From an uncultured Candidatus Saccharibacteria bacterium (GTDB taxonomy: Bacteria > Patescibacteriota > Minisyncoccia > Phycocordibacterales > UBA9973): DNA of 64,000 nt. Where the stretch lies: NCBI GenBank assembly GCA_964596395.1, contig CAZQSY010000001.1, forward strand, positions 108,091 through 172,090. The letters are read 5' to 3'. The translations under genes were made by a program, and so were the position numbers. The notes beneath the pieces are model-generated. The model was given only the letters and a program-made list of their open reading frames with translations, did no database searches and was not told the origin of the DNA. Of the stretch, positions 2,976 through 51,100 are shown one piece after another; the stretch's first letter is position 1, and each line of letters begins with the position of its first letter.

Positions 2976-3089
2976 GGGGTTCCGCGAAGTTTGTGTTTTT
3001 TGAGCTGGTCTGGTTGAGCCCACACCTTTTAAAAATTACTGTGTGGGCGACCCGAGGACCCGAGAAAAATACAAACTTCGCGGAACCCC
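2976..3089. repeat. Nested inverted-repeat element, copy A (outer 19-bp perfect IR ggggttccgcgaagtttgt / acaaacttcgcggaacccc enclosing core gagctggtctggttgag-hairpin-cgacccgaggacccgagaaaaat)
   Basis: Outer IR 2976-2994 and 3071-3089 are exact reverse complements; core 3002-3070 has an internal hairpin cccacac...gtgtggg; the same termini recur at 5694-5779 and 21642-21734. Confidence 0.7.
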
Positions 3090-5354: not shown

Positions 5355-5704
5355 CCTTAAACGCGAAAAAGCTGCTAAAAATTGTTTCCTTCTCAGTGCT
5401 TATTCTCTTTGTGGCTATCTACGCTTTCTACCGCTCCAGAGACCTCGTCTTTGGAGTCAAAATAAAAAATGTGAACATAACCGACGGCGCAACAGTCATT
5501 GAAAAAGTCCTGCCGGTCGAAGGGAACGCCAGAAACGCCGTTTTGCTCGCGCTTGACGGCAGGGCCGTATCAATAGACGAAGAAGGCAATTTTAAAGAAG
5601 AAATCGCGCTCTTTTCGGGTTATAATGTAGTGAGTATAAAAGCGGTAGACAAGTTCGGCAATAGCGACGAAAAAAATTATAAGTTAGTGTTTATTCCGCG
5701 ATAA
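5351..5704 (+). CDS. Small membrane-anchored hypothetical protein (ATGA overlap with ftsK stop)
   Basis: 117 aa, one N-terminal TM helix (IVSFSVLILFVAIYAFY); the last codons FIPR plus the stop lie inside the outer IR of repeat copy B. Confidence 0.5.
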   Translation: MTLNAKKLLKIVSFSVLILFVAIYAFYRSRDLVFGVKIKNVNITDGATVIEKVLPVEGNARNAVLLALDGRAVSIDEEGNFKEEIALFSGYNVVSIKAVDKFGNSDEKNYKLVFIPR

Positions 5705-5779
5705 TTATATTTTTCTCGGGTCCTCGGGTCGGCCTCTCGGCCTCAACCAGACCAGCTCGAAAAACACAATTATCGTGGA
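5694..5779. repeat. Nested inverted-repeat element, copy B (inverted relative to copy A)
   Basis: Core atttttctcgggtcctcgggtcg-gcctctcggcc-tcaaccagaccagctc is the reverse complement of the copy-A termini; outer imperfect IR ttccgcgataattat (5694-5708) / acaattatcgtggaa (5765-5779). Confidence 0.65.
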
Positions 5780-5791
5780 ATCAGTAAAAAC

Positions 5792-7464: not shown

Positions 7465-7636
7465 GCGCGAAACCCTTTCTTGGCATATTTTTTATAAAGC
7501 AATCTGTCTGGCCAAGCTTGGCCAGCGAACTGCTCGTCACTCAAGAAAAACAATAGCCGGAGTACCGGCTTTGTTTTCTAAGCTCCTGCGCAAGGCTTTC
7601 TAAAAAATACGCCTGCGACCGGGTTTCGCAAACAAA

Positions 7637-8841: not shown

Positions 8842-9009
8842 GAGCCCTATACTAGCAAAAAGGGTAAAATAAGTAAAGATGAAAGGCAAAACCCTTCGCA
8901 GGCGTACTTTTTGGAAGGCCTCGCGCAGGCCGGCGGGCCGAGCAGTTCGCTCCGCAAGCTTGCGGAGATAGATTGCCTTACAAAAAGTATGCCAAGAACA
9001 GGGTTTTGC

Positions 9010-9872: not shown

Positions 9873-11354
9873 TTATTCTTTCCTGAGAAAAAGCGGGGTT
9901 TCTGGTTTTTTGTTTTCTTTGATAAGGTTTTTAATTTTTTCCGATGTCTCCGGCAGAAACGGTAAAAGCTCATCTGCTATAGCGGAGATACCCAAAACCA
10001 ATTCTTTTATCATTCCCTTTCCTTTTTCTTCGTCCATTTTTATAACCTTGAAGGGTTCTTCTACTTGGATTTTTTTGTCTAAATTCTGCACCTGGTTCCA
10101 AATGTGCTCCATCGCTTTCTGCAAATCAAACTTTTCAAAATGTTCAGAAAATTCTTCCGGCAATTCTACTGAATTTACAGGCAAGGCCTGTAAATATTTT
10201 CCCGAGAGAGTCAAAACCCGTGAAACCAAATTCCCCAACCCATTCGCCAAGCCCGAATTGTACGCGTCTTTGAACCGCTCCAAGGTAAACGGACTGTCTT
10301 CGAAACTGCTGACTTCCTTCAGCAAAAAATACCGCAGGGCGTCCGTACCGTATTCTTTTACGATGTCCCTCGGGTCAACACCATTACCCAATGTTTTTGA
10401 CATCCTGATTCCACCCTCGCCTGTAATGAAACCGTTAACGACAATCTGGCGCGAATTCGGCAAGCCCGCCGCCATGAGCATCGCCTGCCACATCGCCCCT
10501 TGAAAACGGGTATTGTCTTTGCCGCAGTATTGCGTCGGATTGCCGTTCACCCAATATTTTTCAAAATTGCCGCTAGAACTCTCATCGGGCCCGCCTGCAA
10601 CGCTATGCGTAGCATTGCGGGCAGGCCAGCCAAGGGTAGAAATATAATTCGTCAGCGCGTCAAACCACACATACATCACATGCTCCGAGTCGCCCGGCAC
10701 AGGAACGCCCCAGGGCATTTTCGTTCTAAGGCGGGAAATTGAAAAATCCTGAAGCCCGGCTCTGACGAAGCTTTTGAGTTCGTTGAAGCGAAAATCTGGC
10801 ACGACGAAATCTGGATTCTTTTCATAGAATTGCAGAAGTTTCTCTTGAAACGCAGAATACTTGAAAAAATAATTTTCTTCTTTGATTGTCTCTAATTTTT
10901 TACCGGGATGCACCGGGCATTCGCCGTTTTCATCTAATTCCGATTCGGTTTTCTCGCTTTCACAACCCACGCAGTATTTTGTTTCGTAATCCTTTTTGTA
11001 TATATACCCGTTCTTCTCGACTCTCTGCCAAAATTCCTGCGCCGCCGCCTCATGCGGTTTATCGGTGGTGCGCACGAAATGCACATCCTCGCTTACTCCA
11101 AACATTTTGAGCTGTTCTTTAAATGTCTCGAACCCGCGGTCTACAAATTCCTGCGGCGGCAAGCCGGCTTCTTTCGCCTTTTCATAAATTTTCATCCCAT
11201 GCTCGTCGGTGCCGGTATTAAAGTACACGTCATAGCCAGAAAGTTTTTTGTAGCGGGCAATCGCGTCTGCCCGCACGAATTCAAGCGCGTGCCCCATGTG
11301 AAGCGGCGCGTTGACGTAGGGCAAAGTGGTTGTAATATAAAAACTTTTTATCAC
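9873..11354 (-). CDS. metG: Methionyl-tRNA synthetase
   Basis: HMGH (HIGH-type) motif, KMSKT motif (IRMSKTLGNGVDP), zinc knuckle CVGCESEK...CPVHPGK. Confidence 0.95.
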   Translation of the reverse strand: MIKSFYITTTLPYVNAPLHMGHALEFVRADAIARYKKLSGYDVYFNTGTDEHGMKIYEKAKEAGLPPQEFVDRGFETFKEQLKMFGVSEDVHFVRTTDKPHEAAAQEFWQRVEKNGYIYKKDYETKYCVGCESEKTESELDENGECPVHPGKKLETIKEENYFFKYSAFQEKLLQFYEKNPDFVVPDFRFNELKSFVRAGLQDFSISRLRTKMPWGVPVPGDSEHVMYVWFDALTNYISTLGWPARNATHSVAGGPDESSSGNFEKYWVNGNPTQYCGKDNTRFQGAMWQAMLMAAGLPNSRQIVVNGFITGEGGIRMSKTLGNGVDPRDIVKEYGTDALRYFLLKEVSSFEDSPFTLERFKDAYNSGLANGLGNLVSRVLTLSGKYLQALPVNSVELPEEFSEHFEKFDLQKAMEHIWNQVQNLDKKIQVEEPFKVIKMDEEKGKGMIKELVLGISAIADELLPFLPETSEKIKNLIKENKKPETPLFLRKE

Positions 11355-18817: not shown

Positions 18818-21800
18818 TTATTTATTTTGGAGAATTTTTACCTTAAAAGCAAGGTCGCCTGCTTTTACTTCCTGGCCATCGTTTTTCTCCAGTTTCAAAT
18901 TTGACACAAGAACGGTCTTCAGCAGTTCCGGCTCAAATTTTTTCACCAGTTCTTCCCCATTCTTTTCTGTCTCAATATAAAGCGTTATCGAATCTTTCGG
19001 CGTAAGTCCCATATCTTTGCGCATGTCCTGCAAAGCCCGCACAAGCTCGCGAAAATCGCCTTCGGCTTTGAGTTCCGGAGTAATTTCCGTCCAGAGCAAG
19101 ATATTTTCGTCAATGTTGGTGCCCTCAACAACCTCTTTCACATTAAGTTCGTCTTTGACTAAATCAAGATATTCGCCGTCCAACTTTGAATCTTTCCATA
19201 TCTCTATTTTAGCTAACGGCTGCCTAACTTTTATTTTTTCATACTGCCGGCGCTCTAATCCGAGAGTGACTATCTTGCGAACTGTTTTCATTTTTTCCAA
19301 GACCTCTTTATCGCCAAACCGGAAAAACTTAAAACCTGCCTTAGGCCACTCGGCTAGATGCACACTTTCAGCTTCTTTTTCGTTTTTCAATTTCTGCCAG
19401 ATATCTTCAGCTGTAAACGGCGCGAAGGGAGCCAAGAGCTTCACTAAATTTTTCAAGACAAGATACAAGGTCTGTTTTGCTTCTTTGTCGCCTTCTTTCA
19501 TCCTATCCCTTGAGCGACGCAAATACCAAGTAGAAAGGTCTTCAATAAAATCCCGAACGCCCCGCACCGGCTCAAGTAATCTGTAATTTTCCAAACTTCG
19601 GGTAACAAGCTCGGTCAACTCGTCCATTCTCGCTAAAATCCATTTATCCAAAACATCGCCCGATTTCGGCTGGCTGTTTTTCTCGACCGAAGTGTCGCGG
19701 TAAAGTTCGTAGAACGCGAGAATATTGTAAAGCAGTCCGAAGACCTGCTGATGCAAGAGACGCACGGTTTTCTCGTCAAAATTTTTGGATTCGCCCGGCT
19801 GGTTGACTGAATACATCCATAGGCGAAGCGTATCAGCGCCGTATTTTTCTATCATTTCCCACGGGTCGACAATGTTGCCCAATGACTTCGACATTTTTTT
19901 GCCCTGCGCGTCGAGCAAATGCCCGAGGCAAATCACGTTTTTGTACGCCTTACCTCGGCCCATTAAAATCCCGACTGCGTGCAATGTGTAAAACCACCCG
20001 CGCGTCTGGTCTATGGCTTCAGAAATGTAATCGGCCGGGTATCCGGCACCTTCTACCCATTTCTTGCTTTCGAACGGGTAATGGTCCTGCGCGAAAGGCA
20101 TGGCACCCGAATCAAACCACACGTCCATCACTTCTTTCACTCGCTTTAAATCGCCCCCGCACTCGCAGACAACTTCCGTTTCGTCAATGTACGGTCTATG
20201 AAAATCAAGTTCGAAATCTTTATTGTGCGGAAGCGGAACAAAAGGAAACTCGGTAAATTCAGAGAATCCCACAGGCGGAATTGACGCTTCAAGTTCTCTG
20301 ATGGTTTCCTCGTCATTTAACCCAAGTGCACCAGCGACAATCAGTCTGCGTGGACCTTCGTGGGTAACGATGAGTATGTTTTCATTCTTGTATTTTTTGT
20401 CTATGTCGTAGAGAAAATTGGAAACTCTAAGTTTTACATCTCTCTGCGTTTCACTTCCATCCGTATCAAGAAAATATCTTTTTTCTCCGGTTTTATCCCC
20501 CCAAAATTCCCGCCATGTTCTACCCTTGAAACTGCCGGTGAATATCTCACGCAAACGTTTATCAAAAACAAGTTTGTCCTGCGGTAAGTCAAGCTCTTTC
20601 AAAATTATTTCCGCCGTCTCTTTGGTTCTCAAAAAATCTGAAGATATCATAAGAGTGATATCTTCTTTCCTCAGTTTCCGAGCCGAATCGAGTGCCTGCT
20701 TTTTACCCTCTTCGGTCAAATGGTCGTTGTCGCTTTCAATTTTGTTGCTTATGAGCCCCTTCAAATTCGCCTCGGCTTGCGCGTGTCGTATCGCGAAGTA
20801 TTTATTGCCGGATTTTTTGGTTTTTTCTTTCAGTTCTTCCAAACTGCCGATGACTTCTCTCTTATGGCATTTCTCGCATTCCCATACCGGAAGGGGCGTA
20901 CCCCAGTACCGCTCGCGCGAAATTGCCCAATCTTTAATCTCTCTTAGCCATTCGCCGAAGCGTCCTTCGCGTATGTGCGCCGGCTCCCAATTTATTTTCT
21001 CGTTTTCTTTTATGAGCTCATCCCTCAACTTTGACATTCCGATATACCAGGAATCGCGGGCGTAATATATGAGCGCGGTCTTACATCGCCAGCAGTACGG
21101 GTATGAGTGCTCGTATTTTTCTTTTTTCAAAAGTAGACCCCGGTGCGCCAAATCTTTGATAATCTCAACCGCGGTTTCTTCATCTCGGGTAAAACGCCCT
21201 TCCAGGAATCCTGTCCCCGACAGAAACTTTCCATCCAAACCTACCAGGTGATGCTTCGGCAGACCGATTTTCGTACCCAGCTCAAAGTCATCTTGGCCGT
21301 ACATCACGGCGGTATGCACCACACCGGTACCGTCTTCGGTCGTCACGAAATCAGCAGGATACACCTTGTATGCTTTTTCTAATTTAGGTTTCTCGCTTTC
21401 GGATATAACATTTTGCAAAAACGGATAAAGCGGCTCGTACTCAAGGCCGATTAAATTTTTTCCCTTTAGTTTTTCCAAAACCTGATACTCGCCTTGAATT
21501 TCCTGCAATCTTTTTTCCGCCAGTATTAAAACTTCATTTTCTTTTTTAATTTTTACGTAATCAATATCTTCCCCCACCGCGAGCGCGACGTTGCCCGGCA
21601 ACGTCCATGGTGTCGTCGTCCAAGCAAGAATGTAAAGCGGAGCCGCGGAATGATTTTCGAGTGTCTGGTTGAGGCCGTTCTTTGCCGAACTTTCTGCACG
21701 GCCGACCCGAGGACCGAGAAAATCATTCCGCGGCGAAGCGATAATTTTAAACTTTACGTAGACCGACAAGTCCTTCACATCCTGGTACCCCTGCGCGAGC

Positions 21801-22384
21801 TCGTGCGAAGAAAGAGCCGTGCCGCAACGCGGGCACCAGGGCACCACTTTGTAGTCCTTGTATAAAAGTCCCCGTTCGTTTACTTTCTTTACGATGTTCC
21901 AAAGCGATTCAATGTAGTCATTGTGATAAGTAACGTACGGATTCTCCTGGTCAACCCAATAGCCAATACGCTCGGTAAACTTGTTCCAGAATTCCAGATA
22001 CTCCCAAACGCTTTCTTTGCATTGCTGATTAAATTTCGCGATGCCATACTCCTCGATTGCTTTTTTTGAATCAAGCCCGAGCTTTTTCTCAACCTGCAGT
22101 TCCACCGGCAAGCCGTGCGTGTCCCACCCGCCTTTTCGGCGCACATGGCATCCGCGCATGGTCTTGTACCGAGGGATGGCATCTTTGAAAGCGCGAGCTT
22201 CGAGGTGGTGAATACCCGGCTTGCCATTGGCTGTCGGCGGGCCTTCATAAAAAACGAACTCCTTTCTGCCCTCGGTTTGCTTTACCGATTTTTCAAAAAT
22301 TTTATTCTCTTTCCAAAATTCCAAAATCCGTTCTTCACGTATCGTCGCTTCACATTTTTCGATTTTTTTGCTTTCCTCGTTCAT
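18818..22384 (-). CDS. ileS: Isoleucyl-tRNA synthetase with two insertions (31-aa repeat-element-derived segment; about 190-aa histidine phosphatase domain)
   Basis: HIGH-type motif PTANGKPGIHHLEAR, WTTTPWTLPGN (CP1 start), KMSKSLGNIVDP; 1188 aa, oversized because of the insertions. Confidence 0.95.
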   Translation of the reverse strand: MNEESKKIEKCEATIREERILEFWKENKIFEKSVKQTEGRKEFVFYEGPPTANGKPGIHHLEARAFKDAIPRYKTMRGCHVRRKGGWDTHGLPVELQVEKKLGLDSKKAIEEYGIAKFNQQCKESVWEYLEFWNKFTERIGYWVDQENPYVTYHNDYIESLWNIVKKVNERGLLYKDYKVVPWCPRCGTALSSHELAQGYQDVKDLSVYVKFKIIASPRNDFLGPRVGRAESSAKNGLNQTLENHSAAPLYILAWTTTPWTLPGNVALAVGEDIDYVKIKKENEVLILAEKRLQEIQGEYQVLEKLKGKNLIGLEYEPLYPFLQNVISESEKPKLEKAYKVYPADFVTTEDGTGVVHTAVMYGQDDFELGTKIGLPKHHLVGLDGKFLSGTGFLEGRFTRDEETAVEIIKDLAHRGLLLKKEKYEHSYPYCWRCKTALIYYARDSWYIGMSKLRDELIKENEKINWEPAHIREGRFGEWLREIKDWAISRERYWGTPLPVWECEKCHKREVIGSLEELKEKTKKSGNKYFAIRHAQAEANLKGLISNKIESDNDHLTEEGKKQALDSARKLRKEDITLMISSDFLRTKETAEIILKELDLPQDKLVFDKRLREIFTGSFKGRTWREFWGDKTGEKRYFLDTDGSETQRDVKLRVSNFLYDIDKKYKNENILIVTHEGPRRLIVAGALGLNDEETIRELEASIPPVGFSEFTEFPFVPLPHNKDFELDFHRPYIDETEVVCECGGDLKRVKEVMDVWFDSGAMPFAQDHYPFESKKWVEGAGYPADYISEAIDQTRGWFYTLHAVGILMGRGKAYKNVICLGHLLDAQGKKMSKSLGNIVDPWEMIEKYGADTLRLWMYSVNQPGESKNFDEKTVRLLHQQVFGLLYNILAFYELYRDTSVEKNSQPKSGDVLDKWILARMDELTELVTRSLENYRLLEPVRGVRDFIEDLSTWYLRRSRDRMKEGDKEAKQTLYLVLKNLVKLLAPFAPFTAEDIWQKLKNEKEAESVHLAEWPKAGFKFFRFGDKEVLEKMKTVRKIVTLGLERRQYEKIKVRQPLAKIEIWKDSKLDGEYLDLVKDELNVKEVVEGTNIDENILLWTEITPELKAEGDFRELVRALQDMRKDMGLTPKDSITLYIETEKNGEELVKKFEPELLKTVLVSNLKLEKNDGQEVKAGDLAFKVKILQNK
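21642..21734. repeat. Nested inverted-repeat element, copy C, inserted in frame (93 nt) in ileS
   Basis: Perfect 16-bp outer IR gccgcggaatgatttt (21642-21657) / aaaatcattccgcggc (21719-21734); core gagtgtctggttgag ... ggccgacccgaggaccgagaaaat matches the copy-A termini; on the minus strand it encodes SPRNDFLGPRVGRAESSAKNGLNQTLENHSAA. Confidence 0.65.
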
Positions 22385-31031: not shown

Positions 31032-31625
31032 ATGAAAAAATTTGAAGAAGCAAAATTTGAAATCGGCGAGCTCGCGGGTATTTCGAAGAAAAATATAGAA
31101 GAGCATTTGAAACTTTACTCGGGGTATGTGAAAAATGCCAACTTAATACTGGAGAAAATAGTGGAGCTAGCGCAAGATTCAGAAAAAAACGCTTACGCTT
31201 TGGGGGAAATTCAAAGAAGGTTTGGTTTTGAATACAACGGCATGCGAAACCACGAAGTTTATTTTGATTCTCTTTCCGACGGAGCGCAGTCCCTCGGAGA
31301 AAATAGCGAACTCAAGAAAGCAATCGTAGAAGAGTGGGGCTCGTTTGACGTGTGGCTTGCCCGATTCAAAGCTGTGGCGCTCACGCGCGGCATCGGCTGG
31401 GCCATGCTTTACTACGACAAAAAAGACGGAAGATTGCTTACGACTTGGGTGGATGAACAGCACTTGGGGCAACTCCAGGATTGCGCCCTGATACTGGGAC
31501 TCGACATGTGGGAACACGCATACGTCTATGATTACCCGACCTCGGAGAAGAAAAAATACGTGGAGGCATTTTTTGAAAATCTGAATTGGGAGAGCGCGGA
31601 GAAAAATTTCCTAAATGTAAAATAA
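31032..31625 (+). CDS. Fe/Mn superoxide dismutase-like protein
   Basis: DMWEHAYV (D/H metal ligands), NHEVYF (His ligand), N-terminal helical hairpin with a single His (IEEHLKLY) where HHxKHH is usual. Confidence 0.8.
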   Translation: MKKFEEAKFEIGELAGISKKNIEEHLKLYSGYVKNANLILEKIVELAQDSEKNAYALGEIQRRFGFEYNGMRNHEVYFDSLSDGAQSLGENSELKKAIVEEWGSFDVWLARFKAVALTRGIGWAMLYYDKKDGRLLTTWVDEQHLGQLQDCALILGLDMWEHAYVYDYPTSEKKKYVEAFFENLNWESAEKNFLNVK

Positions 31626-31635
31626 AAAATCGAGA

Positions 31636-31712
31636 AAAGGTTTTTAAGGGGTTTGGCGAGCGACGGCGAGCCAATTTCAGGAATTTTTAAGCTTCAAAAA
31701 TTCCGTACCGAC
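31636..31712. repeat. GC-rich palindromic intergenic module (host form, no nested inserts)
   Basis: ggggtttggcgagcgacggcgagccaatttcaggaatttttaagcttcaaaaattccgtacc; 9-bp stem ggaattttt/aaaaattcc; the same scaffold recurs at 56736-56862 with two inserted palindromes; outer IR atcgagaaaaggttttt / aaaaaccttattctcgat. Confidence 0.5.
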
Positions 31713-31719
31713 AAAAACC

Positions 31720-33246
31720 TTATTCTCGATTTTTTATCTCAAGGAGAAAGCTTTTCGCATTTCCCCCAAAAAGCTTGTAAGCAAACCAAGCGTATACGGC
31801 CATTGTCAGCACTAGAGGAAATTCTGGAATAGAGAGCGAAGCGAAAGGAACTCGCGCGAAAAAATTTACTACGGACATTTCGTAATGAAGTAAGAGATAC
31901 GACATGAAACCGAAAGGAACGGAAGCAAAATACCAAATTAACCCGGCGAATCCGGCAATAAAACCAAAACCCATGGTGAAAGGAATGAGCGGCAAAATCA
32001 AGACGTTGGCCGGCAATGCCACCAGCGAAAGGCTGCCCATTTTGTAAAGTATGAAAGGCAGAACAAAAATATAAACGGCAGTAGTAATAGAGAAAATTTC
32101 CCGCAGGCCGAAATAGGGCGTGACCCACTCAAAATATTTTTCAACTTTCGGAGCAAAAAATATCACCGCGACAGTGGCTAAGAAGGAAAGCTGAAAAGAT
32201 ACGTCAAAACGCAAAATGAAAGGGTTCCAGAGTACCATGACGATGCCTGCCAGAAGAAGCGCCCGGCCGGCATCATAGCCCCTGCCTGAAACTTTCGCGA
32301 AAAGAGAAATTACCGCCATCACCCCCGCTCGCACCGCGGTAGAAGGAGCGCCGGTCATGAGCACGAACAAAAATATGGAAAACATGCCGGCCCCCGCCGC
32401 CCATCCCATAGGCAAAAAAGAGAAAAATTTCATGAACCACTTGGCGACAATCATGATGTTGTAGCCGGAAAGAGCGACAATGTGTATCGTACCTGTTGAG
32501 ACGAGATTCTCCCGAAAAGATTCTTCAAACGAGGCCTTTTCACCTAAAATAAGGCCGGCCATGAGCAGAGATTCTGGTTCTCGAATGGCTTGATTTATTT
32601 TTTCGGAAAATTTTTCTTTGACGGAAAATAAAATTTCTTTCACCTTGTTCCCATCCCCACGCGAAATTATTTCAGCATCCGGATACTTCATCAGGTAAAA
32701 AATCCCGTCCTTGCGCAAGTAATTCACATAATCAAATTCTTTACCTTGGTCGGTTATGAAATTTTCCGGCTTTTTTAAAACTCCTTTTATATCCAATTTA
32801 TCTCCGTACTTAGAATTATTTTCCAGCCCTACTGTAACTAAAATTCTTGTTTTGAAACCTTTTTCTTCGGCTTCCACGATAAATTTCTGATTATTTTCGG
32901 CCACGTTCGGCTCATCGGCAATTTCACCGGTCAAAGAAACTCTCTGGCCTACTTTTGATTCGAAAAACTCCGGCACAGGCCTATCCGCAACGCTAAATCT
33001 CCAAATCCCAAAACAGAAAAGCAGAACAAAAACCGAAATTAAAACCCCTATTTTATTCTTGGAAACAAAAGTAAAAAACAAGAGCAGTGCAAAAGCTAAG
33101 ACCCCAAATAAAATAACAACGTGTAAATTCACAAAAACACCTGCCTCGCCGGCACCTGCCTGTCCGGTAGGCAGGGGCAGGAAAGAGCGCACAAGCACTC
33201 CCAGGATAAAACCCGCGCAAGCCGAGTAAAAAATTTTATCTTGCAT
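31720..33246 (-). CDS. comEC: ComEC/Rec2 competence channel protein (N-terminal OB/DUF4131 + competence domain, no MBL domain)
   Basis: Polytopic membrane protein; HIVALSGYNIMIV competence-domain signature; ends before any MBL motifs. Confidence 0.85.
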   Translation of the reverse strand: MQDKIFYSACAGFILGVLVRSFLPLPTGQAGAGEAGVFVNLHVVILFGVLAFALLLFFTFVSKNKIGVLISVFVLLFCFGIWRFSVADRPVPEFFESKVGQRVSLTGEIADEPNVAENNQKFIVEAEEKGFKTRILVTVGLENNSKYGDKLDIKGVLKKPENFITDQGKEFDYVNYLRKDGIFYLMKYPDAEIISRGDGNKVKEILFSVKEKFSEKINQAIREPESLLMAGLILGEKASFEESFRENLVSTGTIHIVALSGYNIMIVAKWFMKFFSFLPMGWAAGAGMFSIFLFVLMTGAPSTAVRAGVMAVISLFAKVSGRGYDAGRALLLAGIVMVLWNPFILRFDVSFQLSFLATVAVIFFAPKVEKYFEWVTPYFGLREIFSITTAVYIFVLPFILYKMGSLSLVALPANVLILPLIPFTMGFGFIAGFAGLIWYFASVPFGFMSYLLLHYEMSVVNFFARVPFASLSIPEFPLVLTMAVYAWFAYKLFGGNAKSFLLEIKNRE

Positions 33247-45078: not shown

Positions 45079-45090
45079 TCATTTTATAAC

Positions 45091-45165
45091 AGAAAACTAA
45101 AAAAGCATATCTCTAGAAATTCGTACCCTAGAAAAGATATGCTTTTTAGTTTTCTGTTGAGTTAG
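45091..45165 (-). other. Long near-perfect hairpin (about 28-bp arms) between the giant surface protein gene and pilB
   Basis: aacagaaaactaaaaaagcatatctctag ... ctagaaaagatatgctttttagttttctgtt; arms complementary except for a 1-nt indel and 2 mismatches; loop aaattcgtacc. Confidence 0.55.
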
Positions 45166-48100
45166 TTTTCTATAAACACCGGTTTCTTGCCGCCGGTAGA
45201 TACGTACACCCACAATTCGTCGGGGGCCTGGCCGCCTGGGCCGGTGCAGGTGATTGAATATTTCGTGCTGCGCGAAGGCCCCGGGCTGACTAAAACACTT
45301 CCCTCAGTATCGCCGCCGGTCGTAATCGCGCCACCTTCGTAAATAATATTAGAGCAAGACGTGGTGTTGGTAGATGTCCATTCCAGAGTAAACGGCTCGC
45401 CAGAAGATATCGGGTTCTTTGAATCCGCCGAAAGCGAAAGGTTAGCGTTCGGAGAAGCCACTGTATCTGTGCAGATGCTCCCGTTCCAGAAAGTTGCAGA
45501 CGCGCAGTCAGCGAAAGCGGTAGCGCGAGCGAGCTCAATCCCGTCATTGTACAAGAAAAAAGTCCTCGGGCTTGAATCGTATGGAACCGGCAAACCTACG
45601 TTGTTCCCGAAATTTCCGGCCATAACAGTAGTTTTTGCTTCTGGATAGTTTGAGGTTATTGCCGAGTCCCCTGCCGGGTTTATGGTGGTCCAATCAAAGT
45701 GAACATCACAGCTACTGTTGCCCGAAAGTATCTCGCAAGGGCTGTCTAGGGGGGTCAAACTTCCAGTCGGAGCTTCGCCGCAAGCCGGCGCCTGGCAGGA
45801 TTGCGTGGGACTTCCTACACAATCAGCCCCGCCGTTGGCTGGAGCAGGGTTGGTGCATGTGCGTGTCTGCACGCCGGACTCTCCGCACATTGTCGCGCTA
45901 CAGGCGCCCCACTGCGACCATCCGCCGTCCACCGGGTCGCTGGTCACGGTCACATCCACCCATGCGCCGCAGTTATTGTTTTCGTTCGACTCGGTCACGA
46001 CGCCGGTAAAGGTCGGGTCATTGTCGGCGCAGGCGCGAACCGAATATGTGCCTGGAGCGATAAAGGTGTACGAGGGAGAGAAAGTTGTGTTATTTCCTCC
46101 GGCGGAAAGCGCTGGCATCAGGGTTGCGTTCAGCGATTCTATCGTGCCGAAACCGCCGGTACTTGAAGCCACCTGGAAAAAGTTCGGGAACGAAGTCGGG
46201 GTCGCGGCAGTGCCGGAGTTTGAGATGGTAGCCGAGAAAGTTACAGCTTCATTCGCGTTGACTTCTGTCGGCGAAGAACTGGAAGCAGTCAGTTCGGGTA
46301 AGGACGCGCCCGGGGTGGCAAAAGTGGCATCCGGAGAGTAGCCGGTGAGTCCCGCCGAGTTCGTGGCGTAACCTCGGTAGTAGTATACTGTTCCACCCGA
46401 CAAGCCGGTCCTTACGTGGGAATAGGCGACATTTACAGAAATACCGCCTTCGGCGCTGCAGTTTGAAGAAGGATTCGGCGCTGTTCCGAGACACGTGCCG
46501 CGGGCGGTGATAGTCGCCGGGATTCCGGCTGAAGTTACAGTCGCTCCGAGTGTCGCCTTATAGGTAGAACCGTCGAGAGAGATGTCCGACGAAGTGGGGC
46601 TCGCGACGGTCGGCGGGGTATTCCCCGAAGCGGCGAAGGTCGCGCTGAATGTCTGGTTTGAAGTTATGTTTGTGAAGGTGTAAGAAGTCGCGCTGGTAGT
46701 AGTCGGAGTACCGTTTACTATGTGCGAGGCAACTACATATCCGTTGCTTGGAGTGAGAGTAAGAGTAGTTGAATTCGTACCGTAAATCACCGAAGTGGTC
46801 CCCGCCGGAGAGATAGTTCCGTTTAACGCCTGAGTAACGGCGATAGTCGGTTTTGCTCTGCACTGCCCGCTTACCCAATCGCTGCCGGAAGCACACGTCG
46901 CAGTGGCGCTGCTTTGGTCGAGCAACACACCGTTGTTGTACAGATAAAATGTTTTTGTCCCGTCAGATATTTGATAATTAAGGGGCGATGTGTTGTTTCT
47001 AGAATCCGCCACCACTATTTGTGGCGGAGTAGTCACTTGAGAATAACTTGCAGGATTGTTTACGCTCCAGGAAATACTCGAGTTACAGGCGCTGGAACCT
47101 ATCGGAATAGTACAATCGGTAGAGGAGACATTGCCCGACATTTGCCCGGCTATCGCCGAGAAAGAAGCAGTAACCGTACAAGCCGAAGTTACCGGACCCG
47201 TGGTGTAAATACTTCCCGCAAGTGAGCCGCCGCAGCCGGTAACAGTATTTATCTCATAACCGCTGTTCGGAGAAATGGTGAAAGAACCAGTGGAATTGTA
47301 GTTCACATTCCTGGAAGACGGGGTGATGGTCCCGCCGACCCCTCCACTAACTGAAGTGCCGACCGTGTATGAATTTAGAGAGAACGAAGCAGATACGTTG
47401 CACCCCGAAGTAATCGCACCAGTCGTATAAGTCGTACCCGAAAGCGAGCCGTTGCAACCGGAAGCGGAAGCGGTGTAACCGGCAGTCGGGGTAACAGTAA
47501 ATGTTGTGGTAAGGCCATGATTCACTGTCCTAGTTGAAGGAGTAATTGAACCGCCGGCCCCACTACCACTTGAGGTTACCGTGTACGAATTTTGCGAGAA
47601 AGTCGCGCTAACTGTACAGTTCGCGGTAATAGAGTTTGTCGTGTAAATATTTCCGGCAAGAGATCCGCCGCAGGTGCCGCCGACCGAAGCGGTGTAGCCG
47701 GTATTCGGAGTAACGGTGAAGGAAGTGTTGTCGCCCGATGCTACGGTTTGAGCAGTATTTGGAGATATGGAACCACCAGCGCCGGCGCTGGGAGTAACTG
47801 TATAGGTATTAGAAGCCACGGTAATATTCTTCCAGGGACCGCAGTTGTTGCTCTCGTTTGATTCAGTGATGGTGCCAGCGTTTGACGAACTGGTCTTGTC
47901 AGCACAAACGCGGATGGAATACGTGCCAGCCGGGCTGAAAGTAATTGATGGGGAGGTAGCCGTATCCATTCCCCCGGCGGTAACCGCAGGCATGGTACCG
48001 CTTGGCGTTCTGTCGGCGGGTGTCCCGCACCCGCCTCCCGTATTGCATGTCTGGAAAAAATAACTGAACGAAGCGCCGGTCGAAGCATTGCCACCGTTGG

Positions 48101-51100
48101 AAATAACAGCGGTGTAAGTCCTGGCGACACCGGTGGTGGCGGCTGAAGGGCTCGCAAGGCCAGCAGTCAAGTCGGGTAAGGGTTTGTCTTCGGAACAAGA
48201 GGCGCTGCTCCCGCCGTTTGAACCCGCGCAGGTCCATGTCCAGGCGGTTGCTCCGTTCACGTTGCTGGTACTGGTACCCGAAGAACAATTGTAGTGAGCG
48301 GGGGCGCAGGAGCCATTGACCGGAGACACGACGGATGAGAATGAAGCTGTTACGGTACAGTTTGAATTTATTGAACCGGTCGTATAAGTGTAGTTCGGAG
48401 CAGTACCCGAAAGCGAGCCGCTGCAGCCAGAGGCGGAAGCGGTGTAGCCGGAGTTTGAAGTCACGGTGAAGGTAGTGGTAGTACCCGCGTTAACCACTAC
48501 CGAACTCGGGGTTATATTCCCATTCGGAGAACCGTTATCTGTGGCTGTCACGGTATAAGTCACAGCAGTTGTCCCACAAACACTTCCGTTCCAAGTGGTA
48601 CCAGCAGAACAAGAAGTCGTGGCCGTAGCAGAATCCAACTCTTGCCCGTTGTTGTATAGATAGAAAGTTCTTGAGCCGTAGTGTACCGAATATGTCGCCG
48701 AACCAGAGTTTCCCGAGCCCACAGTTATATTTGTCGGAGTGGTTACCGCCGAAGTTGAAACCGGATTGGTCGTACTCCAGCTTATGCTTGAACTACAACT
48801 ACTTTGTCCGGATGGAATCGTGCAATTCGAAGCGCTGATTGTTCCAGACATACCGCCGGCCGAAGCCGCAAACGTTGCCGTCACGCTTTTAGCCGAGTTC
48901 ATGGTGAAACTGCAAGTTCCGGTGCCGGTACACGCGCCCGACCAGCCAGAGAATGTATAACCGGAAGAAGGAGCAGCGGTGAGAGAGACGCTAGTACCGC
49001 TGCTTACGTTTGCAGAACAAGTAGTGCCACAATTTATGCCGTTGCCGGTTACGGTGCCGCTGCCGGATTTAGTTACAGAAAGAATGTATGTTGTCGGACT
49101 AAACGTCGCCGTCACGCTTTTGTTTGCGTTCATAGTGAAACTGCAAGTTCCGGTGCCGGTGCAGGCACCCGACCAGCCAGAGAATGTATAACCAGAAGAA
49201 GGAGTAGCGGCGAGAGAAACGTTTGCTCCAGTTATGATATTAACCGTACAGGGGTAAGAACTGCAACCAGACAGAATGTTGCCAGCAGAACCAGACGCGG
49301 TACCGCTCAGAGTGCCGCTGCCGCTTTTGTTTACCGTAAGCGCGCTAGTTTGAACTGAATTGAAAGTAAACGTCACCGTGCAGTTTGTGGTTATGGCGTT
49401 CGTCGTGTAAGTGGTACCGTTTAATGTTCCCCCACAAGTGCCGCCGACCGAAGCGGTGTAGCCCGAGTTGGGGATAACATTAAAGGAAATAATCCCGCCG
49501 TGCGAAACATAATAATTATCCCCCGAAGAAGACCAAGTAGAAGTCTGTTGAGATACACTCCCATTCGCGCCAGCGGTAACCGTAACACTATGGAAAAAGA
49601 AAGCTATAAGCGAGCAATTTTGGGTGATGGGCTCGGTTGTGTAAATAACTGAACCGCTCCCCAGAACTTCGACCTGGCTACCACACCCTGAAACCGCACC
49701 TAGATAGCCGGAATTCGCCGTTACGGTGAAAGTAGTAGTCTGACCGGATTGCACAGTTCTGAATGAGGGAGTGATAGACCCACCGGAACCATCTACCGAG
49801 GCAGACACAGTATAGCTAGGTGTTGTTTGGCTAAACGTAGCTGAAACGGTACAATTCGCGGTTATCACATTTGTAGTGTAAGTAGTGCCACTTAAAGTTC
49901 CCCCGCAAGTACCACCCACCGAAGATATATATCCAGAATTCGGTGACACGGTGAAAGACATGGTATACCCGTAGGTTATTGATTGGGAAGTGCTCGGAGA
50001 AATTGAACCGCCGGAGCCAGCGCTCGGCGTCACCGTCAAGACCGCTTTGTTGAATGTCGCAGTAACACTCTTGTTTGAATTCATAACGAAACTGCATACA
50101 GAACTCGCTCCAGTGCAAGCGCCCGACCAGCCCGAGAAAGTAGAACCAGTTGAGGGTGTGGCAACCAAATCAATGAGATCATTTGGATAAAAACTCGCGG
50201 AACATGTGGTCCCACAGCTGATACCGCTCGGAGAAGAGGTAATTGTTCCTGAACCAGTACCAGCTTTACTTACGGTCAGAGTGTACGGGGCTAAGCTGAA
50301 CGTCGCCGTCACGCTTTTGTTTGAATTCATGGTGAAATTGCAGGTTCCTGTGCCAGTGCAGGCGCCCGACCAATTCGAGAATACATAGCCCGCAGACGGG
50401 CTCGCGGTGAGGGACACACTCGCACCGCTTGAAACATTAACTGTGCATGGGTATGAAGAGCAGCCGGAGAGAATGTTGCCGGCAGTGCCGGAGGCAGTGC
50501 CGGATATAGTGCCACTGCCGGTCTTGCTGACAGTGAGAGCGTAGTTCTGATAAGAAGTTGTAAAAGAAACATCAGAACCATAGCTTGTGCCCGCTCCGTT
50601 TGTGGCATACGCGCGCACATGATACGTAGTACCCTGAGAAAGACCGGTGATATAACTTATCCATGGACTGCTCGCGCTACTTGTTCCATCGGCAGTTTTG
50701 CCTAGATAAGAAGAAACCGTAGGATTTGAAGAAAGCCCCCACACTATTCCGCTTGCTGAAATGGGTGAGCCATTCACGGATGTGATTTGTCCCCCACTCT
50801 GTGCGGAAGTTGGAGATATGTTTGAAACGTTGCTGGTCGTAACTGTCGGCGCCTCGGCCGGGGTCACAAATGAGGAAGTGGAAGAGTACCCCGTGAGATA
50901 GGCCGAGTTGGTGGCATATCCCTTGAAATAATAAGTTGTGCCCGGATTTAGATTTGTCAAAGAAAGAGAAAAAGGGTTAGTGGAAGAACCAGACAAGCAG
51001 GTGTTTAAACTAGAAGAAGAAGTTCCGTAACAAAAACCTCTGCTGTTTATAGTAGAAGGACTACCGAAATTTGATATGGTGTCAGACAAAGTTACACTTC

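What the first reader, a model, noticed from the sequence alone, without database searches (positions are those of the whole stretch)
21642..21734. RPE-like event: a 93-nt nested-IR repeat element inserted in frame inside ileS
A 93-nt segment of ileS (minus strand) has the same architecture and termini as two intergenic repeats at 2976-3089 and 5694-5779: an outer 16-19-bp IR built around TTCCGCG/CGCGGAA, conserved core ends (tctggttgag ... cgacccgaggacc-gagaaaat) and a variable central stem. In ileS it is exactly 93 nt (31 codons) with no stop. It encodes SPRNDFLGPRVGRAESSAKNGLNQTLENHSAA just before the conserved WTTTPWTLPGN block, where editing-domain insertions are tolerated. In-frame palindromic-element insertions into essential genes are best known from Rickettsia (RPEs); here the same phenomenon appears with an unrelated element.
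Basis: seen in the sequence. Interest (0 to 1): 0.8.

Follow-up and report, generated by a model that had tools for sequence, protein, structure and literature searches.

The report
Hairpin mobile element inside ileS
A 93-base hairpin-forming mobile DNA element sits in frame inside the essential isoleucyl-tRNA synthetase gene of an ultra-small (Patescibacteria) bacterium. It belongs to a large, apparently undescribed family that is written into many housekeeping proteins of this phylum, much as the palindromic elements of Rickettsia are.

Summary
Window 21642-21734 is one of three copies in the window of a hairpin repeat; the others are 2976-3089 (+) and 5693-5781 (-). The copies share an identical core, GTCTGGTTGAG...CGACCCGAGGACC. 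A covariance model built only from copies in other genomes finds exactly these three (E 4e-14 to 4e-10).

The host is a Paceibacterota bacterium. Of the 125 copies analysed (122 from those loci plus the 3 in the window), 61 lie inside long ORFs with the frame open. Hosts include IleS, a LeuS-like synthetase, PheT, LigA, PolA, UvrC, UvrD, RecG, Tgt, Dus and the CCA-adding enzyme.

The arms differ completely between subfamilies but stay paired (93% against 47% with shuffled partners), while the asymmetric core is invariant. An AT-rich intergenic subfamily carries 7-bp target-site duplications (11 of 35 perfect; null 0.1%).

The ileS site, the tip of the beta-hairpin before WTTTPW, is a hot spot. 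It is occupied in 56 of 120 homologues, by several different insert types; three other types checked are also hairpins.

Verdict: a Rickettsia-palindromic-element-like, MITE-like element that is translated through. I found no description of it in Rfam or the searchable literature. The mobilising enzyme is unknown.

The parts
21642..21734 (+). Copy C of the hairpin element, given in the orientation of its conserved core. It is embedded in frame in ileS, which is read on the minus strand, so the core is antisense to the mRNA.
   Evidence: best covariance-model hit, 59.2 bits, E 4.4e-14.
21642..21658 (+). 5' arm of C, GCCGCGGAATGATTTTC.
   Evidence: 17/17 complementary to 21718-21734.
21659..21662 (+). 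5' junction GAGT. Predicted mostly unpaired, opposite GA at 21716-21717.
   Evidence: Fold. The junction type GAGT/GA is seen in 8 family members.
21663..21673 (+). Core 5' half, GTCTGGTTGAG.
   Evidence: Identical in all 125 copies analysed.
21674..21702 (+). Apical hairpin of the long form, GCCGTTCTTTGCCGAACTTTCTGCACGGC.
   Evidence: It resembles the apical hairpins of L012, L073 and L069.
21703..21715 (+). Core 3' half, CGACCCGAGGACC. CGACC pairs with GGTTG, CGA is a 3-nt bulge, and GGAC pairs with GTCT.
   Evidence: RNAalifold consensus.
21718..21734 (+). 3' arm of C, GAAAATCATTCCGCGGC.
18818..22384 (-). ileS, 1188 aa, the host gene. The element adds about 30 residues (aa 219-250) between beta-strands VYVKFKII and LYILAWT, just before the CP1 editing-domain motif WTTTPWTLPGN.
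2976..3089 (+). Copy A, intergenic, long form. It has 25-bp arms; core halves are at 3008-3018 and 3048-3060.
   Evidence: (-67.7 kcal/mol, z -10.9).
5693..5781 (-). Copy B, intergenic, short apical hairpin (GGCCGAGAGGCC). Core halves are at 5742-5752 and 5719-5731 on the minus strand.

Best explanation
Window 21642-21734 is a copy of a non-autonomous, hairpin-forming (foldback, MITE-like) mobile DNA element that is widespread in Patescibacteria, mainly Paceibacterota.

Anatomy. The element has two long arms whose sequence is free but which must pair, and a short junction. Its core is nearly invariant and asymmetric. Helix GUCU/GGAC and helix GGUUG/CGACC are separated by a 3-nt CGA bulge. Each helix contains one G-U pair on the 'sense' strand. 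The tip is either a 4-10-nt loop or a semi-conserved apical hairpin.

Shown. The family is multicopy within and between genomes. One subfamily is flanked by 7-bp target-site duplications, so it moves as DNA into a staggered cut. Copies inside genes always keep the frame open.

Inferred. The core is the site recognised by an unidentified enzyme acting in trans. Recognition probably happens on a folded single strand. This would explain why arm pairing, rather than arm sequence, is conserved, and why wobble pairs favour one strand.

Copies that land in frame and without stops in permissive surface loops of essential proteins are not purged, and are translated as an extra loop of about 16-39 residues.

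In this ileS the copy landed at the tip of the beta-hairpin that leads into the CP1 editing domain. It adds about 30 residues that are probably disordered. That position is a hot spot in the clade, most simply because it is a tolerant turn.
For: Significance in the window: 3 matches against 0 in shuffles; covariance model built from foreign copies gives E 4e-14 to 4e-10.

Architecture and covariation:
- 92 distinct arm types share one identical 24-nt core.
- Arm positions are 93% paired, against 47% with shuffled partners.
- RNAalifold on 20 copies finds compensatory changes at 15 of 15 arm pairs and invariant core helices with the CGA bulge.

Strand polarity: G.T 80 against A.C 40 in the arms under symmetric scoring. 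The sense strand folds better in all three window copies.

Mobility: 11 of 35 copies of the AT-rich subfamily have perfect 7-bp flanking direct repeats (null 0.1%), and 4 more have 6 of 7. Across all intergenic copies, 12 of 61 have exact repeats of 7 bp or more (null about 1.6%).

Read-through:
- 61 of 125 copies lie in ORFs with at least 40 open codons on both sides.
- All three antisense frames and two sense frames are used.
- I found no clear class of gene-splitting copies; six had long ORFs on both sides in other frames.
- Hosts are housekeeping genes by Pfam.

ileS: 64 of 120 homologues have only a 3-residue turn. PDB 8c8w has 6 residues against 36 here. The model has strands 207-214 and 250-256 flanking a segment (219-246) with pLDDT below 50.

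Decay in place: degenerate versions of the frame-b peptide (VLGR.., ALGS.., SLGSS..) occur in other IleS homologues.
Against: - No transposase or autonomous partner was found in the roughly 875 kb held, so the enzyme is unknown.
- The three window copies and the commonest ORF-embedded subfamily show no convincing target-site duplication. Only 4 of 61 embedded copies have 7 bp or more. The 7-bp staggered-cut mechanism is therefore shown for one subfamily only.
- The conserved centre with variable ends is the reverse of a classical MITE, whose transposase binds the terminal repeats.
- At orthologous sites in different genomes the outer arms are unrelated yet perfectly paired. Neither simple vertical decay nor a fixed mobile unit fully explains this.
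- All family statistics rest on copies chosen for an exact core, so conservation of the core is partly a result of how copies were found.
- Translation of the insert is inferred from open frames, not observed.
- The structure model is poor overall (mean pLDDT 64.6).
Confidence: 0.82

Rival explanations
1. The core is a functional structured RNA (a small RNA, a protein-binding motif or a ribozyme) carried on a hairpin. The family is kept by selection for that RNA function, not by selfish transposition. Copies inside genes would be antisense RNA genes or regulatory modules.
For: The 24-nt asymmetric core is identical across at least 67 assemblies while the arms covary freely. G-U polarity marks one functional strand. 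There is an orientation bias relative to genes: 49:12 in ORFs and 22:9 between co-directional genes.
Against: Rfam gives no match at gathering score, and only spurious miRNA hairpin hits in E-value mode. The 7-bp target-site duplications are a DNA-insertion signature. Copies sit at scattered positions in unrelated genes and in both orientations. Degenerate copies in IleS homologues suggest no local selection. An RNA role and mobility are not mutually exclusive.
Confidence: 0.1
2. The element is targeted to specific sites (homing-like). The ileS beta-hairpin and the LeuS-like site are hit repeatedly because the insertion machinery recognises them, not merely because they tolerate insertions.
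For: At the ileS site, 56 of 120 homologues carry an insert, of several peptide types. The window copy and three other types checked at DNA level are hairpins. This family alone appears there in frames a/a, b/b and c/b in five genomes. A LeuS-like site carries it in three different frame combinations. Elsewhere in about 1150 aligned IleS positions only a few rare inserts occur. All inserts checked at the site have the same orientation of the better-folding strand.
Against: Both sites are known variable turns or linkers, so filtering by selection would give the same pattern. Duplicated targets in the AT-rich subfamily are merely AT-rich 7-mers with no shared motif beyond a leading T. Hosts and positions are otherwise diverse. 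The IleS tree is too star-like to count independent gains.
Confidence: 0.15
3. The 93 nt is an intervening sequence removed from the mRNA, or the peptide is removed from the protein (a mini-intron or intein-like element), so that IleRS is not altered.
For: Long perfect hairpins are plausible RNA-processing substrates. The insert sits in an essential enzyme next to the editing active-site motif.
Against: Every gene-embedded copy keeps an open, stop-free frame, and I found no clear class of gene-splitting copies. Splicing would not require that. The stop-rich AT-rich subfamily is found only between genes. On the mRNA strand the core has C.A mismatches and a single bulge, not a bulge-helix-bulge motif (sequence). 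The 31 residues show no sequence features I recognise as intein splicing motifs; this was judged by eye, with no search run.
Confidence: 0.03
4. The segment is an ordinary, fast-evolving IleS loop, and its similarity to the intergenic repeats is chance.
For: Loop length at this position varies widely among homologues.
Against: 0 of 100 shuffles give even the three pattern matches. The covariance-model E-value is 4e-14. The DNA core is identical to more than 120 copies elsewhere. The loop DNA has a perfect 17-bp inverted repeat.
Confidence: 0.01

Closest known systems
Rickettsia palindromic elements (RPE; Ogata et al. 2000, 2002, as summarised in PMC10969869)
   Same: Short palindromic repeats that form hairpins. 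They occur both between genes and in frame inside many unrelated housekeeping genes, are translated as extra peptide segments, have several families per genome, and have no known mobilising enzyme.
   Different: The host is a different phylum (Patescibacteria, not Alphaproteobacteria). This element is shorter (about 60-130 bp against about 100-150 bp). Its defining feature is an invariant asymmetric 24-nt centre with freely covarying arms. One subfamily shows 7-bp target-site duplications. The same protein sites are hit recurrently. I could not test sequence relatedness to RPE-1 to RPE-10.
Bacterial MITEs (for example Correia/NEMIS, Coxiella QMITE, cyanobacterial MITEs; review PMC10969869)
   Same: Small size, no coding capacity of its own, inverted-repeat arms, many copies, target-site duplication (in one subfamily), and occasional in-frame fusions with host ORFs.
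   Different: Classical MITEs keep their terminal repeats, which are the transposase binding sites, and let the centre drift. Here the termini differ between subfamilies and the centre is fixed. Arm pairing is maintained by covariation, which duplex-DNA recognition does not require. No parent insertion sequence was found.
Coding palindromes in Nematomorpha mitochondrial genes (PMC6649704)
   Same: Long, near-perfect inverted repeats maintained inside translated protein-coding sequence.
   Different: Per that abstract, both arms there encode conserved regions of the host protein. It does not describe a repeat family with a shared core. Here both arms are extra sequence added to the protein.
REP/BIME elements with RAYT transposases, and other single-strand hairpin substrates (IS200/IS605 ends, integron attC sites) - from general knowledge plus PMC3733652
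   Same: Recognition of a folded, imperfect hairpin on one DNA strand, with bulged bases and strand polarity, is the kind of mechanism the covariation and G.T bias suggest. attC sites also combine a conserved stem with a variable terminal structure.
   Different: REPs are 20-40 bp with GTAG or CGTC heads, which are absent here. To my knowledge none of these systems makes 7-bp target duplications. No Y1 or tyrosine recombinase was linked to the element here.

Membership tests
Rickettsia palindromic elements (RPE) | A repeated palindromic element of roughly 100-150 bp that folds into a stable hairpin. | tested here: met
   Copies are 93-114 nt, with fold z-scores of -5.9 to -10.9. Arm covariation is seen. 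The elements are somewhat shorter than RPEs.
Rickettsia palindromic elements (RPE) | In-frame insertion in many unrelated housekeeping ORFs. | tested here: met
   61 of 125 copies lie in open frames. Hosts are IleS, a LeuS-like synthetase, PheT, LigA, PolA, UvrC, UvrD, RecG, Tgt, Dus and the CCA-adding enzyme.
Rickettsia palindromic elements (RPE) | Sequence homology to the RPE-1 to RPE-10 consensus sequences, and occurrence in Rickettsia. | not testable with these tools
   No RPE sequence library was available. The host is Paceibacterota, so I treat this as analogous to RPEs, not as a member.
MITE | Small, multicopy, with no transposase ORF. | tested here: met
   Copies are 60-130 bp. There are 125 or more copies, with several per genome, for example in GW2011_GWA1_40_21 and Campbellbacteria RIFCSPLOWO2_02_35_12.
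MITE | Terminal inverted repeats conserved across the family. | tested here: not met
   Arms are inverted repeats within each copy, but 92 different arm types share the same core. The conserved part is central.
MITE | Target-site duplication. | tested here: met
   In the AT-rich subfamily, 11 of 35 copies have perfect 7-bp duplications (null 0.1%). Not detected for window copies A, B and C or for most ORF-embedded copies.
MITE | A related autonomous insertion sequence with matching ends. | tested here: inconclusive
   No split cores or solitary arms flanking an ORF were found in about 875 kb of loci. Whole genomes were not searched.
REP/BIME (RAYT-associated) | A 20-40-bp palindrome with a GTAG or CGTC head. 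| tested here: not met
   The elements are 60-130 bp and no such head is visible at the ends of the listed copies. Definition from PMC3733652.
Any Rfam RNA family (ribozymes, small RNAs, cis-regulatory elements) | A covariance-model match at the gathering score. | tested here: not met
   0 matches in the window. E-value mode on copy A gives only sub-threshold miRNA hairpin hits.
Intron or intein | The sequence is removed from the RNA or protein, so there is no constraint to keep the frame open. | tested here: not met
   All embedded copies are open and in frame, with no clear class of gene-splitting copies. Removal itself cannot be tested from sequence.

The most novel reading that the evidence does not exclude
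The family may move by a mechanism not yet described. A trans-acting enzyme would recognise the folded asymmetric core on single-stranded DNA and insert the whole foldback with a 7-bp staggered cut. The arms would be regenerated or homogenised by snap-back synthesis or intrastrand template switching. That would explain why arm sequences at orthologous sites are unrelated yet perfectly paired. Insertion would be biased towards particular strand contexts and sites, such as the IleS CP1 beta-hairpin. If so, Patescibacteria would carry a structure-guided hairpin transposon system that continually remodels the surface loops of their essential proteins.
Probability: 0.15. Interest if true: 0.85.

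Novelty: new variant of a known kind. Interest (0 to 1): 0.64.

Why it matters
- In-frame 'coding palindromes' are treated as an unusually frequent feature of Rickettsia (PMC10969869). This finding shows the same phenomenon, apparently on a larger phylogenetic scale, in the Patescibacteria. Their reduced genomes are usually described as streamlined.
- It gives a concrete source for the many short, lineage-specific insertions in their conserved proteins.
- It warns annotators and phylogeneticists that such loops are mobile DNA, not homologous protein characters.
- It provides a sharply defined 24-nt motif and a covariance model for censusing the elements and for finding the enzyme that moves them.
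- The inverted logic of the element (fixed centre, free but paired arms, strand polarity, 7-bp duplication) points to recognition of a folded single strand. That is mechanistically interesting for transposition.

Tried and rejected
- **Rfam.** The whole window at gathering score and copy A in E-value mode gave nothing meaningful.
- **Viral contigs.** An exact-core scan gave 0 hits, so there is no sign of a phage vector.
- **Bulge-helix-bulge intron on the mRNA strand.** Rejected from the sequence and fold: one 3-nt bulge plus C.A mismatches, not two bulges 4 bp apart.
- **K-turn, group II intron domain V and tRNA T-arm resemblances of the core.** Considered by eye. The GAGC junction is absent in 40 copies that have only 'TG', and the tRNA-like match was a single one-mismatch hit. 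All dropped.
- **Autonomous partner.** I looked for core halves separated by a gene and for arms without cores, and found none.
- **Target-site duplications around window copies A, B and C.** Only a 5-bp AAGCG repeat near C, which is within chance (null).
- **Counting independent gains.** A neighbour-joining tree of 120 IleS N-termini was too star-like to use.
- **Arms derived from host flanks.** Not supported at ileS: the arms do not duplicate the flanking KFKI or NTYILAW codons.
- **GC skew and replication direction.** The skew simply follows gene orientation.
- **AlphaFold2 model of IleS.** Low overall confidence (pLDDT 64.6), so I used it only for the local strand-loop-strand picture.
- **Not run.** I did not run the metagenome scan.
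Full report
**1. The observation**

- They share GTCTGGTTGAG and CGACCCGAGGACC exactly. The composite pattern occurs three times in the window and never in 100 dinucleotide shuffles.
- Copy C (21642-21734) is 93 nt long. It consists of a perfect 17-bp outer inverted repeat, junctions GAGT and GA, the two core halves, and a 29-nt apical hairpin.
- C lies in the 1188-aa ileS ORF on the minus strand. It is read as SPRNDFLGPRVGRAESSAKNGLNQTLENHSAA, immediately before LYILAWTTTPWTLPGN.
- All copies fold much better than shuffles. Each folds better on the strand that reads GTCTGG...GGACC (the 'sense' strand) than on its complement: -67.7 against -59.0, -44.0 against -34.6, and -51.7 against -47.0 kcal/mol. 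In ileS the sense strand is antisense to the mRNA.
- A covariance model built from 20 copies from other genomes finds exactly these three places in the window (E 4.4e-14, 4.8e-11 and 4.2e-10) and nothing else.

**2. The organism and the family**

The IleS protein places the window in Patescibacteria/Paceibacterota (Nomurabacteria-like). The nearest relatives are only about 68-71% identical.

These come from at least 67 assemblies. Nearly all are titled Paceibacterota, Nomurabacteria, Campbellbacteria, Adlerbacteria, Zambryskibacteria, Minisyncoccia, Parcubacteria, 'uncultured Saccharibacteria' or simply 'bacterium'. One is titled Burkholderiales. There were no hits in viral contigs. Rfam holds nothing like it. 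Six literature searches found no description of such elements in this phylum.

**3. Anatomy across 125 copies**

From outside to inside:

- **Arms.** These are about 14-35 bp. Their sequence differs completely between subfamilies (92 distinct arm types), but they pair in every copy: 93% of the first 12 arm positions are paired, against 47% when partners are shuffled. RNAalifold finds compensatory changes at all 15 arm pairs.
- **Junction.** Most often this is just 'TG' on the 5' side. Otherwise it is GAGCTG/CGA, GAATG/TGA or GAGT/GA.
- **Core.** Helix GUCU/GGAC, a 3-nt CGA bulge, and helix GGUUG/CGACC. Each helix has one G-U pair on the sense strand.
- **Tip.** Either a 4-10-nt loop or a semi-conserved apical hairpin (about CCYGCTCTTTTAAAGAATCCTGYGCRGG).

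In the arms, non-Watson-Crick positions are G.T twice as often as A.C under symmetric scoring (80 against 40). This points to the same polarity as the core.

Allowing two mismatches per core half added only 10 variants to the 125 exact copies in the held loci. That figure is conditioned on how the loci were chosen.

**4. Evidence that it moves as DNA**

In an AT-rich, purely intergenic subfamily (arms ...GAATTACGAAATGCAAAAATTTATG), 11 of 35 copies are flanked by perfect 7-bp direct repeats. Examples are TCAATAA, TTTATAT, TATCTTT and TTAAGAA. Four more copies match at 6 of 7 positions. Flanks paired at random give 0.1% and 3%. Across all intergenic copies, 12 of 61 have exact repeats of 7 bp or more, against about 1.6%.

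The duplication abuts the base of the hairpin, so the whole foldback is the mobile unit.

ORF-embedded copies rarely show such duplications (4 of 61). The window copies show none. The mechanism is therefore demonstrated for one subfamily and extended to the rest by inference.

No autonomous partner was found in about 875 kb.

**5. Copies inside genes**

- Sixty-one of the 125 copies lie within ORFs that stay open for at least 40 codons on both sides. In 49 the ORF is antisense to the core and in 12 it is sense.
- All three antisense frames are used. Frame b/b (...VLGS...QPDHS...) accounts for 34 copies. Frame a/a (...GPRV...LNQT..., as in this window) accounts for 7, and mixed frames for 8. 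Sense copies read ...NGLVE..TRGP... or ...VWL..RPED....
- The hairpin spans 16-39 codons, with a median of 27.
- Hosts confirmed by Pfam are the CCA-adding enzyme, Tgt, LigA, DNA polymerase I, Dus, UvrC, UvrD/PcrA, PheT, RecG and an FAD oxidase. IleS and a LeuS-like synthetase are also hosts.
- Among the 64 copies not embedded in ORFs, I found no clear class of gene-splitting copies. Six had long ORFs on both sides in other frames; window copy B lies between two tandem genes, and L056 may be a frameshifted gene. The stop-rich AT-rich subfamily is found only between genes. This is the pattern expected if embedded copies are translated through, not spliced out.
- The antisense bias is partly explained by stop codons. 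The sense core contains TGA in one frame and many junctions add another. However, intergenic copies between co-directional genes are also biased (22 antisense against 9 sense). Some intrinsic or selective strand preference therefore exists.

**6. The ileS site**

- Of 120 homologues, 64 have only a short turn (typically K-GQE-NTY) between the strands VYVKFK and YILAWTTTPW. The other 56 carry inserts of about 3 to 42 extra residues at that same position. The inserts fall into several recurrent peptide types, with 18 left unclassified.
- Eight homologues carry this same element family in frame b (VLGS...PDHS), some visibly degenerate. The window is the only one in frame a.
- Four further copies with the exact core sit at this site in genome loci L017, L041, L042 and L080. 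Their arms and frames differ.
- Three other insert types were examined at the DNA level: X1 in L112, X2 in L113 and X3 in L114. Each is a long hairpin with a different centre. Each also folds better on the strand antisense to ileS.
- X1 is homologous to two intergenic palindromes in this window, 7482-7613 and 8901-8993.
- Elsewhere in the roughly 1150 aligned IleS positions only a few rare inserts occur.
- A solved IleRS (8c8w) has 6 residues where the window protein has 36.
- The AlphaFold2 model is weak overall. It puts beta-strands at 207-214 and 250-256, with residues 219-246 below pLDDT 50.

The simplest reading is that this is a tolerant beta-hairpin tip that keeps whatever lands in it. 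Targeted insertion cannot be excluded.

**7. An unexplained feature**

At orthologous sites in different genomes, such as the site in DNA polymerase I (L030, L060, L061, L073), the inner 15-17 nt of the arms are alike. The outer 15 nt or so are unrelated between genomes, yet perfectly paired within each copy. Element and flanking coding DNA are about equally diverged.

Two explanations are possible. Different subfamily members may have entered the same site independently. Alternatively, the arms may evolve in concert, for example by intrastrand template switching that copies one arm from the other. I could not decide between these.

**8. Relation to the other window copies**

A, B and C share an outer-arm signature, YCCRCG(G)A(A/T). 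Beyond that their arms are diverged, so none is a recent copy of another. By peptide and DNA, C most resembles the copy in LigA of locus L012 (NDFLGPRV.R...LNQTLEN.S).

**9. Comparison with known systems and verdict**

The element behaves like a Rickettsia palindromic element and, in one subfamily, like a MITE. It is not a demonstrable member of either. Homology to Rickettsia elements could not be tested and the host phylum differs. The MITE criterion of conserved termini is not met, because the conserved part is central.

It is not a REP, not an Rfam RNA, and not an intron or intein by the tests available.

I rate it a new variant of a known kind, of moderate to high interest. The main unknown is the enzyme and the form of nucleic acid it recognises.

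Noticed in passing
window 7482-7613 and 8901-8993: This is a second palindromic repeat family, in opposite orientations. The two copies share ..CGCAGG..GCCGAGCAGTTCGCT[stem-AAGCTT-stem]AGAYAGATTGC.., and the inner stem covaries (CCGC/GCGG against GGCC/GGCC). The family is homologous to the 'AGSLSPSADGALPLGSSACETP' insert that occupies the same ileS hot spot in 10 of 120 IleS homologues (for example L112, about 10640-10760).
   Followed up: partly
window 18818-22384 (IleS, roughly residues 520-700): IleS carries an inserted histidine-phosphatase domain (Pfam PF00300). The domain is present in all 120 best homologues of this clade. A few homologues (P0028, P0049, P0079) also have a C-terminal HD domain (PF01966). 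I do not know whether this fusion has been described.
   Followed up: no
IleS homologues P0063 (about aa 281), P0038 (about aa 1003) and P0114 (about aa 1170): A 12-residue insert, PARPH(E/D)(G/S)SGAGG or PASPHSVSGAGW, appears at three different positions in three different IleS proteins. This suggests yet another tiny in-frame mobile element (about 36 nt) in these genomes.
   Followed up: no
L113 10001-13552 and L114 4346-7954 (ileS of other Paceibacterota): The inserts at the same ileS position (peptides SAQKNPSALLHP... and ASLLQISSRFTRQNP...) are further, different long hairpins. Each is more stable on the strand antisense to ileS. The L114 insert shares the terminal GGCCGAG...CGAGGC and the junction CTGAGT/GAAG style with the family studied here, but has a different centre.
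   Followed up: partly
window 31622-31737 and 45088-45158: Two more intergenic hairpins, with 24-nt arms (88% complementary) and 16-nt arms (100% complementary). They do not match the core studied here. Their family membership is unknown.
   Followed up: no
window 45162-52007 (minus strand): A very large ORF of 2281 aa. I did not examine it.
   Followed up: no
L069 (JBBUAC010000003.1), L084 (CAZFSV010000007.1), L015 (LBYO01000010.1): Single 8-kb stretches carry two or three copies of the element. L084 has two copies in one UvrC gene and a third in another ORF, which shows how densely some genomes are colonised.
   Followed up: partly
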